DNA from: Bdellovibrionia bacterium
Lineage (GTDB): Bacteria > Bdellovibrionota > UBA1018
NCBI GenBank assembly: GCA_045805065.1
Contig: JBJMMA010000172.1
Span: forward strand, 1 to 20,530
Length of the DNA: 20,530 bases
Direction of reading: 5' to 3'
Each line of letters opens with the position of its first letter. Within the stretch, counting starts at the first letter, position 1. This document shows, one piece after another, positions 3,001 to 9,000 of this stretch. Position numbers: made by a program.

Positions 3001-6000
3001 TAAAAGTTGTCGCAATAATGCTTGCTTGCGCAGATGGAAGACAGGTGACAATCGCGACATCTCCTGCGTGCTCAACCGGGCCAAAGCCTCCGGCTCCGTA
3101 GCCTTGAGTTACGCAGAAACGATTAATAGCGGCGTTGCACGTCGCACTGAGAGCCGCTGAGCCATCGCATCCTGGCACAAATGTCTTGAGGACCGAGTAA
3201 GAGGTATTAAATACAGCGGCAGCATTCACAGACGCGGAAGGTAACTTTGCGCCATTCATGACCGCATTCCCCCAGCCTTGAAGCTCAGAAGGAGATGGAG
3301 CGCGTCCCAGGCTCTGTATTAAAACACTGCGGAATCTTGCTTGCCCTTCTGGACTCAAGATGAAGGCAGCTCTCATTTGCCGCAAATTATGCCCATCGCT
3401 CAGAAAGCTCTGCCAGCCGGCAATTTCAGACGATGAAGCAACCCGTCCGAGAATGGTTTGATAGGTCGCACTGATCAGTGAAGCCGCTTCGGCGCTCTTT
3501 GCGATAGAAACCCAAGCCTTACTGACCGACATTCCTTTACTGATTGCAGTACTGAAAGAGGAGAGCCCAGAGCTATCGACGGGCCGCCCCAGTAGCTCCT
3601 GATACATCTGACTGACCACCTGAGCGGCCAGCGCAGGGTGAAGATACTCGCTGGAGTTTGCGATGCAGCCCTTCCAATCCACATGCTGATATGATGATGC
3701 CCCGACGCCGTCACCCGAAAAGTCGACGATCGAATTCGGGCTCACGTCATAAGACTCCGTTCCGCGGAAGCCACATCCACCTGTGTTTGTTCCGCCTCCA
3801 GCGTTTTGGACACTGTTGTTTCGCACTCGAATCGAGGCTGTCGTATGATCGATGATTAATCCTTCTTGGGCGTTGCTCACGACATTATCGTGATAATCGC
3901 CACCGCCATAATACTTGGCCTGGTACCAAGGATCCGCGCCCAGCATCATTCCAAAGCCGCAGCCACGAGCGGCTCCGCAGTCGATCTGATTTCCCGAGAT
4001 GTCACTTCCTGCATAATCACCGCTGGTTGCTCCATTGGGCCACGCATGAGTCATGAAGGCTGCAAAGCTTCCGTAGCGGTAATGCGTCGAGTGCTTGATG
4101 ACGTTGTTCTGGATCACGCAGTTTTTGCATCCACCGAAAATGAAATCCACGTCAGAGTTTGAGATAAAGATATTTCCGATGAACTTTGAATTCGAAGCAT
4201 CACCTACCGTCAATCCGTCCGACCAGACGCCGCGATGATCGCCGTTCTCCACAAAAGCGCTATTTTGCACGGTGAGGCGATCGCCACTCGGTCCCATTCC
4301 GGTGCCGCAAATCGCGTGCTTTGAGACGCTATTGATAAAAGAAAAACCTGCGCCCGAGGATACGGCGTTGTATCCCGGGGTATTATCTTTAGAGCAATTC
4401 TGAGCAATTGCCGCTCCGGTCGACGTCCCGATGCGCGCCTCACGGTTTCCGTCCAATACAATATGATCAATCGTTACGTTGGGCTGAGTGTTGTTCATCA
4501 GACCGAACTGAACATTGAGGTTTGGATCGGCAATGAGAACCGCGCAATCCAGGCCAAGCTCATAGTCACAGATTTTCGAATCCGTTCGCCCCTGAGTCCG
4601 AAGCGTGATGGAGCGATCGAAAGTAATCTGATTCGCAATCGTATAGAGTCCGGCAGGCAATTCCAGAATTCCACCTGCGGGAGTCTGGTGAATGCAGGCT
4701 AAGATCACGTCAGCGGCGTTTCTTCCGGTTCCACCATAGGCAGCAAGTTCGTTGCAGGTGAAAAGTCCTGCGCCGCTCGGCGAGCTCGCGGCAGTCACTG
4801 TTCCCGAATTTCCCGAAGTGCCTGAGTTGCCTGCGGCGGAGGCCGCGGATTGATCGGCCTGGACTGAGCCTACCGAGATGGATGAGCTTGTAAAGCGCGC
4901 GCTCTTTGTTGAAGTGCACCCTACCGCCACTGCGGTGATCAGGCAGAGATTTAAAGTTCTGAGCACGTTATTTGAAAACCTTTTCATAGAAAACTACTCC
5001 ACTGAAATGATCGATGCTCATGCGAAAACACAGCTGCAACTGGTTGTGCCACAAACACTGCAAACCCTACTCCAATGGGCCTCTGCGCGCCGAAACACCC
5101 ATAAGCTCGCCCAGAGCCTGAGAAAGGCGCATGGACTTGTTCGTCCTGTGCTTAACTGGCCAAAGTCTCGACAGCTCTCAGCGCAAGTTATTTAAACTCT
5201 TGCGATTTAAATTCAAAGCTTCCTGACTTCGCCGCTCTCGGAGATCTCAAGAGTCACGTTTTCAAGAACGGGCACTCCCTTAACGTGAGGCACGAGATTT
5301 GGGTGCCTCTTGAGATATGCCGAAAGATCAAAACCGCCCGTACCTTTGTTGTGAATCCGAACATCACCGCGAAGAATCACGCCCGTCAGCATCACCTGTC
5401 CGTCCACATTCAGGCTTTTGAGATCAAGAAGACTGGTTCCCTGAAACGAGTGCGTCACGTGCTGCACATCGGCGTAGTACTTGTCCTCAGTCAGTCGATC
5501 CTTGAGTGACACGGCCGGGAGAGAGCCTGGGCGCTGATGCGACAATCGCATGCTTTTCGGATCGAGCTTGAAGAGATCGCTATGAAACTGCATGAAGTAA
5601 TCAAAAGCGGATTTGATCGGAGAGAAGAACTCGGTTCGGGCATCTTTCTCCACGTTGATGAAATGAACCAATGGCTCTTTGTAATGCTGGCGCCAATAGC
5701 GATCCAGATTCAGAAGGCTTGAGCCCATCGCACCCTCAAGCTGCAGGTATTTTCGAACGACGCCGTCAGGATCCTTCTGCTTTTTCACGTTGGAAATGAG
5801 ATCGGGCGCCACGATTTTCATGAACTCATGCTCGCCGATTTCACTGACAAGTTTTTTGATTTTGGGCGTCAGCACGTCATAATTGAAGAGCGCCATATTG
5901 GTATTGAAGAAAGCGACTTGATCGCCGCGGCGGACATCGAGACCCAGCTTTTCAAAGAGTGCCTGCTGTCCCGCCTCTTTGGCCTGCGCCTGCTCAATGA

Positions 6001-9000
6001 TTGTGGCATACGTGGAGCCGTCAGAACGTTTGACGAGCGCGATTTGTCCGCCCTTCAAGTCGTTCATGGTCTTTTCGGTCGTGACCATTGCGATCGGGAC
6101 CTGCTTCTTGATCATCCATCCAACCATCGCAGCATCGGGCGTGCTGCTCAGATCCTCGCCATTTCCCACGGCTGAAACCAGCGACTTGCCGGTCTTGGGA
6201 CGCATTTCATCGCGATAAGCCGCGCGAAGTGCATCGACTCCAAAGTATCCGTGTCCACCTGGAGCCTGACGCCCGAAGCTGAACTTGCCCGCCTCATCGA
6301 TCGTAGGCATATAAGATTGAAAACTGCTTCGAGATGATCTTTGAACAATCTTGAGGTCTTTCAAGACCTGCTCGTAAGTTTTGGTCGGATCAATCAGCGA
6401 TTTCTTGCTCCAGAGGTTCGCGATCGATTCCTCGGTCTCAGGACCGATCAAGTCGTGGAGCACAACTCCGCTGAACTTTCCGCTTTGCGCATCATGAATG
6501 GCTTGAAGGATCTGGGCTTCGGCCAGTGACACTGAGACCGTCTTGGATGGAGCGCGTGGATCCGGAACATCCACGTACAAATCGGTCCCTTTCGCGCCAA
6601 TGCGAACTTCCTTGGGATCGATTTTCTTGATGCGTCCAAGATAGGTCTGGCGAGTCAGTGAGGAGCCCGTACCTGCCTGCATTTTTTTGATCCAAACAAC
6701 GGAAGAGCTGGCTGCGTCCGTGTATTCCTTGCTGCTTTTGAGTGATCCGTACTGAACATAAGGGATTTGCGACAACAACTCAGCAGGGGCGATCGCAGTC
6801 GGGTAAGCGGTCAATTTCCCTTCGGCTGATTTGCCTGCCTCAAAGATCTGAAGTTCCTCTTTATGCCCGGCCAGTTTCTTTTCATAAAGCGAAAGAAAGT
6901 AAGATAGGTTCTGCTCATCGAACTTCAAAAGCTCTCGAAGCTTTTGGCGTGCTTGAGCATTACCGGGATTTGCAACGAGTTCAGTGACAAGCTCATTCAC
7001 CGCAGCTTCTTTGGAGGCGACCGAAGCCAGACTATGGGCTTCGAATTGGTGCACTACACAGTCTTTGAAACTCGCACTCGCGGATGTGCTGAATAGAAGA
7101 ATGAAAACAGCAAAAAGAGACAATCTTCCTGAAAGTTTCACGCGTTCCCCTCGCGGCCAGATCAATCCATTGATCTCAACGTACCTATTCAGTGTAGCAA
7201 CGATTGTCCTTTTAGTGAAATCGTCCTCTGTGGCTCGATCACTCGTTCCAACTTAATCACTTTATTTTAATTCAGACCTAAATTGAGTCGGCGAAAGTCC
7301 CTAAATTTTTTCGCTTAAATATTCCGATCAGTCATCCGATCAATCAATAGATGAGAACCCCTCTAAAAGGCGCACATCACGTTGCCGTTCTGCTCTTAGC
7401 CGTGATGCCTCTTGCTTTAACGGTTCCGCATACGTTTGCTTCCGACGCTCGGGGGAACATCAAATCAGGCGCCGTCAAAGAGCTGTCGATCGATAAGCTG
7501 GCAAGAGGGATTGCCGATCGTCTGAAGCGAGTCGAAGAGTTCAAGTTCATCGAAGAAGAAGCCTTAAAACTTGGAGTCAGAGCCTACCTCTTTGGAGGAA
7601 CTGCTGCAGGCTACGCTCACTATGTCAAATGGGACATGCAAAGAGAAAAAGGCGATCCAAGATTTCAAAAAGACCGCTTTGATTACGACTACACCAACAT
7701 CTACCGCTCCACTCAGGACTTGGACATCGTCATTGATGGCAACCCTGAGCAGGCAACCCAACTTCAGACTGCTCTCCAAAACAAGTACCCCCACCTCCAA
7801 GGTAATAAGACTGCGTGGGAAGTGCGACTCCTCACTCAGGACATGGGCGACAAGCAGGCCATTCTCAATAACCCCGACTTCATGAACCAGCATACGGACT
7901 CCAACTCCACGGGCATGATCGAAATCACAAAGCCCAAAGCAGGAGAATCGATCGTCAGAGACGTGAGAGATTGGAATTCCAAAGAGCCTTACTTTTTAAA
8001 AGACGTGCACGACGGGATGCTGCACTACTACTTCTCCCCTCTTCACAACACGACGAAATTTGCCAAGGAAGGACGCAATCCTCCCATTCTTTCAGCCATT
8101 CGCTTTCTGACCAAAGCCTTTCAATATGAACTCAAAATCCGCCCTGAAGATCTGGCGTCGATCCAGAAGATCATTCAAGACTTTGATCCCAAGGCAACCG
8201 CCAAGAACGACTACGTTGCCAATTGGATCGAAAAGAACGGCAAAAAGCTCATCCAAAACGCCGTGAACATTGAGTATGCCAGAAACACATTGGATCAACT
8301 CGGCTTGAGAGAGAAGCTTCGATCGATCAAAGACAATGTGAGCACGACCGAATCTCTCGCCTGGTGGATGAATAAGGAACCGCTCCGCTCTCACCTGATC
8401 GGGCAAGGAACAGGAAAGACCGCAAAAGAGCTGGGTTTGGATATCGTGGCTCATGAAACCAGCAATTTTCTCGCTTATGAAAGTATCACCCGCGCCCACA
8501 CGGGCGATCCAAACGTCCTGATTTCCAGAAACGATGCGGCCGGAGAAGCCGCTATTCATGGAGATGGTTTTTACACCAAAGATGGCCGTGAAGGTGCTCG
8601 AGGAACGGGTCTGACGATTCGTTTTCACTTGGATCCTCATGCCAGAGAAGGATCTGATTTCGACTTCGTGCCTAATGAGCACTATGTGATCATCCGCAAT
8701 AAAGCAGCACTGAAAGTGATTCCAGAGAGCCTCAATATCGGTCCTGTGGAATACTTCCAAATGCTCTCTCAAGGCAAGAGCGGCATTTCTCACAGTGATC
8801 GCGGAATTCTGGAAAAGCTGAAGCGAAGAGTCGCGACAAAAACCAGCGCCGTGTCAAAGCAAGAGCTCGAAGAAATCAAAAAGATCATCCGGGCCGCCAT
8901 TAATACCCCTGGAGAAAACCAATCTCACCTTTTTGATGAGTGGTTTGCATTGCCTGCTTCGCGATCCAGCCCCGAGCTCAGCGAGGCACTTCTAAAAAAA

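What a model noticed while it worked through the whole genome (the two positions that open the first line are those of the whole stretch)
5213..7141. Exported sugar-activation pair: secreted galactokinase and secreted eukaryote-type UDP-sugar pyrophosphorylase
g02531 (PF01704 UGPase) and g02024 (GalK, C143:20542-21909) both carry signal peptides beside ordinary cytosolic paralogues (g03375, g03142). The two are adjacent in a relative and fused in another protein, so they form one exported pathway sugar to sugar-1-P to UDP-sugar that needs ATP and UTP, i.e. would act inside prey.
Evidence so far: GalK model E 8e-75, motifs kept; UGPase hits; adjacent secreted galK-UGPase in G051; signal-bearing UGPase-GHMP fusion P0401; 13 clear signal-bearing UGPase homologues by eye; the other GalKs shown in call 39 have no signal.
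(Added by a program. Inside this text positions count along the whole contig: contig position 1 is position 1 of the stretch shown here. "Call 12" and the like, gene names such as g00115 and contig names such as C1 are that model's own, and its searches are not shown. The text may have been shortened before it was handed on; [...] marks where a part breaks off. The agent that wrote the report below was given it as the finding of a first reader that could run no searches.)

Follow-up and report, generated by a model that had tools for sequence, protein, structure and literature searches.

The report
Exported UDP-glucose enzyme of predatory-type bacteria
A Bdellovibrio-related bacterium puts an export signal on a normally cytoplasmic UDP-glucose-making enzyme, probably to feed an exported glycosyltransferase inside prey; the galactokinase pairing proposed for it is real in relatives but involves a different version of the enzyme.

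Summary
The export signals are real. The window gene (5213-7141, minus) encodes an intact eukaryote-type UDP-glucose pyrophosphorylase (UGP) with a signal peptide; the GalK-like gene on contig C143 has one too; both have cytosolic paralogues. Exported kinase-UGP operons and fusions exist in other Bdellovibrionota. The pairing does not carry over to this gene: all 7 GalK-linked UGPs in the tree lie in a clade with a remodelled sugar pocket that also holds this genome's cytosolic paralogue, whereas the window enzyme keeps the glucose-selective F-N-T-N motif. The 6 other sampled genomes with its exported type lack GalK, and all 6 encode an exported MGDG-synthase/UgtP-like glycosyltransferase (background 34 of 401), adjacent at three loci; this genome's assembly shows none. 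The kinase has lost the signature Glu, so its sugar is open. Both proteins carry a terminal cysteine-plus-helix tag shared by about 55 exported proteins here, many needing ATP, GTP or acetyl-CoA. Best reading: exported donor supply for glycosylation in a prey compartment; location and substrates untested. The scan noted a similar tag and exported UGP modules before, on other DNA.

The parts
5213..7141 (-). Exported UGP-A-type UDP-glucose pyrophosphorylase, 642 aa (long-loop, F-N-T-N type)
7147..7152 (-). Ribosome-binding site GAGGGG, 5 nt before GTG 7141; supports the upstream start that includes the signal
   Evidence: read; the alternative GTG at 7054 has no such site
7073..7141 (-). Sec-type signal peptide, residues 1-23, Ala-x-Ala cleavage site
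   Evidence: kept in orthologues P0003, P0004
7028..7069 (-). Cysteine-plus-helix tag (Cys28, the only Cys of the protein) at the start of an N-terminal helical extension outside the UGP core
   Evidence: match to the genome's tag profile is moderate (top 6.4% of internal Cys windows; orthologues 3.5% and 1.1%)
6590..6688 (-). Nucleotide-binding loop K152-G159 and Lys184
   Evidence: invariant or nearly so in 28 sequences; assignment to the UGP loop is by motif and overall fold match, inferred
6152..6253 (-). His297 and N327-G-E-D330 (Glu in place of the Mg-binding Asp of eukaryotic UGPs, invariant in the whole clade)
5897..5995 (-). Sugar-binding Glu383 and F412-N413-T414-N415 (= F305-N306-T307-N308 of Leishmania UGP); changed to [AVI][SN]TN in the GalK-linked clade
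5612..5614 (-). Catalytic Lys510 in F-S-P-I-K
7351..10140 (+). Divergent neighbour: 929-aa signal-peptide protein with a strong C-terminal cysteine tag, one of 26 paralogues; same exported class
   Evidence: no Pfam or NCBIfam hit

Best explanation
The window protein is a glucose-1-phosphate-type UGP that has acquired a Sec signal and a terminal cysteine-helix tag. Shown: fold, intact active site, signal, tag, phylogeny, gene neighbours. Inferred: it is exported with the other tagged proteins (Sec, then probably type II secretion or a pilus system) into a compartment holding another cell's UTP and Glc-1-P, most likely the interior of a prey cell, and makes UDP-glucose there as donor for an exported MGDG-synthase/UgtP-like (GT28) glycosyltransferase, plausibly a lipid glucosyltransferase since some are fused to phospholipase D. 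The exported GalK-like kinase belongs to a second, parallel module (kinase plus broad-pocket 'short-loop' pyrophosphorylase, a GalT-free salvage route) whose exported pyrophosphorylase is not present in this assembly. In this genome the glycosyltransferase is unassembled or lost.
For: UGP fold Z 26.6 vs UAP 19.0 and USP 16.9; F-N-T-N kept, the Phe being the residue tied to glucose selectivity and plant UGPase having at most 0.14% activity on Gal-1-P (PMC5609113, passages); cytosolic members of the same long-loop type lie in LPS/EPS gene clusters; genome has its own cytosolic GalU, so this copy is extra. In 401 phylum genomes: 6 of 7 with an exported long-loop UGP have PF06925, 1 of 7 (this genome) has GalK; 2 of 33 with only signal-less UGP have PF06925, 0 of 33 GalK; 3 of 3 with an exported short-loop UGP have GalK and none PF06925. 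Adjacent exported GT28-like genes at L040, L236 (G206, two genes) and L238 (G009, GT-PLD fusion). 30 of 32 GT28-like frames pass the signal test and 17 of 18 complete ends carry a tail Cys. Tag: 39 C-terminal hits vs 1-3 in shifted controls, 18 N-terminal vs 1-4, among 918 signal proteins; tagged set includes protein kinases, ATP-grasp, RelA/SpoT, AAA, Macro, GNAT. T2SS, type IVa and Tad loci present.
Against: No PF06925 or GT28-like partner in this genome by four looks (94% complete, 262 contigs), and no exported GT2 or GT4 among 31 checked. The same-genus genome G075 has the exported GT28 but only a cytosolic UGP. Other exported long-loop loci show no glycosyltransferase neighbour (L237, L049, L058, L078-L082). 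28 of 34 PF06925 genomes lack an exported UGP. G345 and G425 share a genus, so the 6 are not independent; G206's signal is by eye only (it fails my heuristic). The tag match of the window protein itself is moderate. One GT28 is fused to a domain Pfam calls periplasmic (Lnb_N). Predation by this lineage, localisation and all substrates are untested.
Confidence: 0.5

Rival explanations
1. One reading: in this genome the exported kinase, whose pocket has changed, makes Glc-1-P or another sugar-1-P that the window UGP accepts, replacing the lost short-loop partner.
For: The C143 kinase is sister (SH-aLRT 99) to kinases that sit in operons with exported UGPs; 5 exported kinase-UGP linkages seen (G079, L092, L083, L105, P0113); no third UGP copy in the assembly; Glu of the signature is Asn and the Tyr236-equivalent is Phe, changes that could relax C4/C6 selectivity (residue roles recalled); this is the only sampled long-loop genome with an exported kinase and without GT28.
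Against: Unlinked; different UGP clade; glucose-type pocket; the same Tyr-to-Phe change is present in G079, where the partner is short-loop; an exported kinase also occurs in G275 with no UGP found (77% complete).
Confidence: 0.2
2. Harvest or poison rather than donor supply: inside prey the UGP runs backwards (UDP-Glc plus PPi to Glc-1-P plus UTP) to release importable nutrients, or drains UTP while the kinase piles up a toxic sugar-1-phosphate.
For: The reaction is freely reversible (PMC5609113); Gal-1-P is generally toxic (PMC6329318, passage); Bdellovibrio takes up ATP and nucleoside monophosphates (titles in the reference list of PMC13689555); no glycosyltransferase partner found in this genome.
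Against: Does not explain the 6-of-6 co-occurrence and three adjacencies with exported GT28, or the exported GT5 gene behind the L105 fusion; cytoplasmic pyrophosphatase keeps PPi low (established knowledge).
Confidence: 0.15
3. The enzymes work in the producer's own periplasm or envelope, for example glucosylating its own lipids or lipoproteins with imported precursors; the tag is a periplasmic tether.
For: A Sec signal alone reaches only the periplasm; one GT28 is fused to Lnb_N; tagged proteins include lipases, PLD and peptidases that could act there; no VirB4-type hit.
Against: UTP, Glc-1-P, ATP, GTP and acetyl-CoA are not normal periplasmic pools (established knowledge); the producer has cytosolic GalU and a cytosolic paralogue for its own needs.
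Confidence: 0.12
4. The signals are mis-called starts or non-functional relics and the enzymes are cytosolic.
For: The public gene call omits the signal; only a home-made heuristic was used; the DNA contigs laid did not cover the 5' end.
Against: Good RBS at the upstream start; signal kept with divergent sequence in orthologues; 22 of 76 distinct UGP loci carry one, 20 of them with the Cys; in L083 the two halves of the fusion are separate genes and each has its own signal and Cys.
Confidence: 0.03

Closest known systems
Eukaryotic UGP-A (Trypanosoma brucei 3gue, Leishmania major 2oef, Arabidopsis 2icy, yeast 2i5k)
   Same: Three-domain fold (Z 24-27, about 450 aligned residues) and active-site His, Asn, Glu, F-N-T-N and Lys.
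   Different: About 22% identity; signal peptide and cysteine-helix extension; Glu for the Mg-binding Asp; clade found in named records only in Bdellovibrionota, apart from two labelled Pseudomonadota, one labelled Proteobacteria and two with no group in the title.
Plant sugar-1-kinase plus USP salvage (Isselbacher) route; also used in vitro as GalK plus USP (PMC6329318, PMC9875253, passages)
   Same: Describes the short-loop clade well: GalK-linked, small aliphatic residue in place of Phe as in USP/UAP, genome without galT.
   Different: Built on a UGP-A fold, sometimes fused and exported; the window enzyme is not of this type.
Chlamydia trachomatis secreted glycogen enzymes using host UDP-glucose (PMC4829429, abstract)
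   Same: Bacterial sugar-nucleotide-dependent enzymes exported to work outside the producer's cytoplasm.
   Different: Type III secretion into a vacuole of a eukaryotic host, donor imported from the host; here Sec signals, and the donor-making enzyme itself is exported.
Microsporidian secreted hexokinases (PMC6460350, abstract)
   Same: A cytosolic sugar kinase gains a signal peptide beside signal-less paralogues to act at the host interface.
   Different: Eukaryotic parasite, glycolytic hexokinase; no nucleotide-sugar step.
Omnitrophota giant multi-enzyme proteins (bioRxiv 10.1101/2023.11.21.568195, passages; UGP modules noted only in earlier scan notes)
   Same: Predatory bacteria with cytoplasm-type enzymes behind signal peptides, near T2SS-like loci.
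   Different: Stand-alone enzymes with a short cysteine tag here; the preprint's main text has no occurrence of 'pyrophosphorylase'.
Galactokinase (P. furiosus 1s4e, human GALK1 1wuu)
   Same: GHMP fold motifs, Arg37, Asp46, Asp186 equivalents and the ATP loop.
   Different: Signal peptide, cysteine tail, Glu43 to Asn and Tyr236 to Phe; below all NCBIfam galactokinase cut-offs.

Membership tests
UGP-A-type UDP-glucose pyrophosphorylase (PF01704) | Pfam score above cut-off | tested here: met
   61.9 bits vs 22
UGP-A-type UDP-glucose pyrophosphorylase (PF01704) | Three-domain fold closer to UGP than to UAP or USP | tested here: met
   pLDDT 90 model; Z 26.6 (rmsd 3.1, 447 aligned) vs 19.0 and 16.9
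UGP-A-type UDP-glucose pyrophosphorylase (PF01704) | Phosphate- and sugar-binding residues (His, Asn, Glu, Asn-x-Asn, Lys) and Phe beside C4-OH | tested here: met
   H297, N327, E383, F412, N413, N415, K510; equating F412 with Arabidopsis Phe292 is inferred from its place before Asn-x-Asn
UGP-A-type UDP-glucose pyrophosphorylase (PF01704) | Mg-binding Asp and Gly-Gly in the nucleotide loop | tested here: inconclusive
   Glu329 and Ala-Gly instead; invariant across the clade, including housekeeping-context members; the Ala-Gly form resembles bacterial GalU
UGP-A-type UDP-glucose pyrophosphorylase (PF01704) | Activity on UTP and Glc-1-P | not testable with these tools
   needs an assay
UDP-sugar pyrophosphorylase (USP, broad specificity) | Small aliphatic residue beside C4-OH instead of Phe | tested here: not met
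   F412 kept in the window protein; Ala/Val/Ile in 15 of 15 short-loop rows (PMC5609113)
Galactokinase (C143 gene) | NCBIfam equivalog cut-off | tested here: not met
   best 252 vs 443 and 217 vs 226.65
Galactokinase (C143 gene) | Glu in the galactose-binding signature G-E-H-T-D-Y and Tyr236 equivalent | tested here: not met
   Asn54 and Phe264; Glu in 112 of 114 and Tyr in 109 of 114 ordinary homologues, the rest unmatched by the pattern
Galactokinase (C143 gene) | Catalytic Arg and Asp, ATP loop, C-terminal Gly-rich loop | tested here: met
GalK-coupled short-loop module of Bdellovibrionota | Membership of the short-loop clade | tested here: not met
   nearest paralogue of the G079 exported UGP here is cytosolic C219 (57.5%) not the window gene (49.6%)
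Secreted metabolic effector (Chlamydia GlgA, microsporidian hexokinase type) | Export signal on a cytosol-type enzyme beside a signal-less paralogue | tested here: met
Secreted metabolic effector (Chlamydia GlgA, microsporidian hexokinase type) | Demonstrated delivery to, and activity in, another cell | not testable with these tools
   no proteomic or expression data; no RNA holder listed

The most novel reading that the evidence does not exclude
Bdellovibrionota use a phylum-wide Sec-dependent effector route in which a single terminal cysteine plus amphipathic helix couples cargo (for instance by a reducible disulfide to a carrier) for delivery into the prey interior, and through it run a whole anabolic pathway inside prey: phospholipase D and a phosphatase free diacylglycerol, an exported UGP makes UDP-glucose, and an exported GT28 converts prey membrane lipid to phosphate-free glycolipid, mining phosphate while keeping the membrane sealed; parallel exported kinase-pyrophosphorylase modules salvage other sugars.
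Probability: 0.25. Interest if true: 0.9.

Novelty: new variant of a known kind. Interest (0 to 1): 0.7.

Why it matters
Predator secretomes are described as hydrolytic, and how their proteins reach and act on prey contents is largely open (PMC12428579, passages). Exported enzymes that build nucleotide sugars, recruited to export several times (at least 6 signal gains or losses forced on the tree) and tied to exported glycosyltransferases, would mean predators also run biosynthesis in prey. The cysteine tag offers a way to list such cargo from sequence, and the exported GT28 is present in closed genomes, so the idea can be tested by deletion and lipidomics. The two UGP types also give a natural test of the Phe switch for glucose versus galactose selectivity.

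Tried and rejected
Direct linkage of the two genes in this genome: different contigs, unrelated flanks. A third, short-loop exported UGP in the assembly: none by tblastn. A GT28 partner here: none; only MurG- and WecB-like hits, and a stand-alone tagged PLD that matches the PLD half of GT-PLD fusions. Exported GT2, GT4, GT5 or PGM: none among those checked (one GT4 hit had no called gene). Glycogen phosphorylase, galT and VirB4 families: not found in a 94% complete genome. Promoter and terminator scan: at chance level. Sequencing runs: four DNA holders from one study, no RNA holder listed; contigs agreed with the window but left the signal region uncovered, so no evidence either way. A loose Cys pattern did not separate N-terminal tags from controls (73 vs 55); a trained profile did, with the caveat that it was trained on the same genome, the two query proteins left out. 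The AU test of one origin for all signal-bearing UGPs did not finish; the careful GalK tree did not finish and the quick tree was used. A short-segment PDB search to number the Arabidopsis Phe gave nothing useful. No held paper gave the roles of GalK Glu43 and Tyr236, so these are recalled. No complex prediction was run, as binding is not claimed.
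Full report
1. Observation. The window gene runs 7141-5213 on the minus strand, 642 aa from a GTG with GAGGGG five bases upstream. 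It matches PF01704 (E 6e-17). Residues 1-23 form a signal peptide. The public call P0002 begins 29 codons later and loses it, but orthologues P0003 and P0004 (76% and 70% identity) keep one. Of 120 listed homologues (of 184 found), 16 have a signal by eye, each followed shortly by a Cys. No SignalP was on hand, so I wrote a heuristic: 15 of 16 tested signal-bearing UGPs and 5 of 5 exported kinases pass, 0 of 114 ordinary GalKs and 1 of 104 other UGPs pass; it wrongly of 4 NTP transferases, so genome-wide totals are overcounts. The kinase at C143:20542-21909 and its four full-length orthologues carry signals and a C-terminal Cys. Signal-less paralogues lie at C219 (51%) and C205 (40%), the latter in a galE/glf-like cluster by eye. 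The genome has a cytosolic GalU and no galT hit.

2. What the enzyme is. An AlphaFold model (pLDDT 90) matches eukaryotic UGP-A best: Z 26.6 to T. brucei UGP, against 19.0 for the best UAP and 16.9 for USP. His297, Asn327, Glu383, F412-N413-T414-N415 and Lys510 align with UGP ligand-binding residues (residue roles from PMC10470519, passages). The Mg-binding Asp is Glu throughout the clade. The clade gave 52 loci in the genome collection, titled as Bdellovibrionota members except two Pseudomonadota, one Proteobacteria and two with no group in the title, and 45 of 401 phylum genomes.

3. The kinase-UGP module exists in relatives. Exported kinase then exported UGP in G079 and L092; exported UGP then exported kinase, each with its own signal and Cys, in L083; signal-bearing fusions P0113 and L105 (the latter broken by an in-frame stop); a signal-less fusion L076; a cytosolic galK-galE-UGP cluster L097/L047. 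The C143 kinase is sister to the G079 and L092 kinases (SH-aLRT 99, quick tree, long branches).

4. The window gene is not that module's UGP. In a 58-row tree all 7 GalK-linked UGPs fall in one clade (support 99, 15 rows) with this genome's cytosolic paralogue; the window protein lies elsewhere. Forcing it together with the operon-linked rows L044 and L092 is rejected (AU p 5e-43; the group was named after the tree was seen). The 15 share a 9-residue deletion and replace F-N-T-N by [AVI]-[SN]-T-N; the window protein keeps F-N-T-N. Decker and Kleczkowski place a Phe beside the C4 hydroxyl in UGPase and a small aliphatic residue in USPase and UAGPase, and measured at most 0.14% UGPase activity on Gal-1-P (PMC5609113, passages); they also note sporadic reports of Gal-1-P use by UGPases. 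I infer that the short-loop clade is the GalT-free, broad-pocket type and the window type is glucose-selective; signal-less long-loop members sit among LPS/EPS genes, as a GalU substitute would. The kinase is also altered: the signature Glu is Asn, Ser or Gly in all exported or fused forms seen (11, one) against Glu in 112 of 114 ordinary ones, and the Tyr236 equivalent is Phe in the C143 and G079 lineages. These residues bind the C6 and C4 hydroxyls (recalled, no paper held), so galactose may not be the substrate.

5. A better partner. In the 401-genome sample, exported long-loop UGPs occur in G000, G009, G082, G206, G345, G350 and G425 (G206 by eye). None of the six others has a GalK match; all six have PF06925, MGDG-synthase/UgtP-like, found in 34 of 401. 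Of 33 genomes with only signal-less UGPs, 2 have PF06925 and none GalK; the 3 with exported short-loop UGPs have GalK and no PF06925; G103 and G086 were set aside as unclassifiable. Kin are not independent, so I give counts only. The glycosyltransferase gene is adjacent in L040, L236 (two genes) and, across a signal-bearing EEP-family gene, L238, where it is fused to phospholipase D; it is not adjacent in L237, L049, L058 or L078-L082. Of 32 GT28-like frames from the 30 best loci and their flanks, 30 pass the signal test and 17 of 18 complete ends have a tail Cys. Against this reading, G000 itself shows no such gene, only a tagged stand-alone PLD related to the fused PLD, and its congener G075 has the glycosyltransferase but no exported UGP; both assemblies are fragmented.

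6. The tag. A home-made gene set (3877 genes) shows a Cys followed by an amphipathic helix at the termini of signal proteins: 39 C-terminal hits against 1-3 in shifted controls and 18 N-terminal against 1-4 among 918; cytosolic proteins show no excess. Among 106 signal proteins with one Cys, 48 have it within 20 residues of an end against about 14 expected (a few are mis-parsed lipoproteins); cytosolic proteins 24 of 259 against 43. The kinase tail ranks in the top 1.4% of internal Cys windows, the window tag in the top 6.4%; many homologue tags from other lineages score at background with this genome's profile. Across loci, 20 of 22 signal-bearing UGPs have the Cys. Of 57 tagged or near-tagged proteins scanned, 21 had Pfam hits: protein kinases (3), ATP-grasp, RelA/SpoT, AAA, Macro, GNAT, NIF phosphatases (2), DnaJ (2, one probably a false call), mTERF, ankyrin, DUF2252, PLD, lipase, a hydrolase and two peptidases. 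Many need cytoplasmic cosubstrates. The genome has type II secretion, type IVa and two Tad-like loci. An unpaired Cys crossing the periplasm suggests an intermolecular disulfide or an acylation; this is speculation.

7. Mechanism. Shown: sequence, fold, signals, tag, trees, neighbours. Inferred: export, action in a prey compartment, UDP-glucose supply to a GT28 enzyme, a lipid acceptor. Bdellovibrio is held to send Sec-exported enzymes to the prey cytoplasm (PMC2797640, passage), but whether this uncultured lineage is predatory was not tested. Confidence 0.5; rivals are a re-assorted kinase-UGP pair (0.2), harvest or poisoning (0.15), action in the producer's envelope (0.12), artefact (0.03).

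8. Known and new. Precedents for exported cytosol-type sugar enzymes: Chlamydia glycogen enzymes (PMC4829429, abstract), microsporidian hexokinases (PMC6460350, abstract), Omnitrophota giant proteins (10.1101/2023.11.21.568195, passages; its supplements are closed and may list UGP domains). Five searches (listings only) and passages of two reviews showed no description of exported UGPs, exported GT28 enzymes or this tag in Bdellovibrionota; the library lacks most subscription papers and no supplements were read. Earlier scan notes record a Cys tag after a signal in another Bdellovibrio relative and exported UGP modules in Omnitrophota; they are unchecked leads. Verdict: observation confirmed, pairing redirected; a new variant of secreted metabolic enzymes; interest 0.7.

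Noticed in passing
window 7351-10140 (+); G000 C7, C247, C188, C222 and others: Member of a 26-gene paralogous family of large signal-peptide proteins with the Cys tail and no Pfam hit; by eye a nucleotidyltransferase-like motif followed by an ADP-ribosyltransferase-like motif and helical repeats.
   Followed up: partly
L239-L268: Nearly all MGDG-synthase-like genes in the phylum sample are signal-bearing and Cys-tailed, including those of six closed or nearly closed genomes of genus g125, where the tail is a short Cys-x-x-x-Phe end; several carry long uncharacterised C-terminal halves.
   Followed up: partly
L238:2585-8256 (G009): Three exported genes together: GT28-PLD fusion, EEP-family phosphatase with an N-terminal Cys, and UGP; a plausible phospholipid-to-glycolipid route.
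   Followed up: partly
L105:4633-6027: Signal-bearing starch/glycogen-synthase-like GT5 gene directly behind the UGP-kinase fusion, which has an in-frame stop.
   Followed up: no
L094:4235-5737 and L021: Signal-bearing, Cys-tailed protein with a GH43-like motif by eye (no Pfam hit) divergent from an exported short-loop UGP.
   Followed up: partly
L076:1774-4308: UGP-kinase fusion without a signal, nested among exported fusions: probable secondary loss.
   Followed up: partly
L222-L233: Short (about 400-480 aa) cytosolic forms of this UGP in family f22, lacking most of the C-terminal domain, inside LPS/EPS clusters.
   Followed up: no
L216 (G275): A further exported GalK-like kinase with Gly in place of the signature Glu, on a short contig.
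   Followed up: no
L137 (G000 C202), L146 (C51), L158 (C195): Tagged exported proteins with mTERF repeats, a Clp-like double AAA, a Macro domain and a RelA/SpoT domain; by eye also methyltransferase-, phosphoribosyltransferase- and DHH-like members.
   Followed up: no
window 15635-20505 (-): Mevalonate-pathway operon with diphosphomevalonate decarboxylase fused to a GHMP kinase, followed by a second kinase, HMG-CoA reductase and type 2 IPP isomerase by eye.
   Followed up: no
window 2645-4987 (-): Cysteine-rich lipoprotein-like protein with beta-helix and DUF4214 domains directly downstream of the UGP gene.
   Followed up: no
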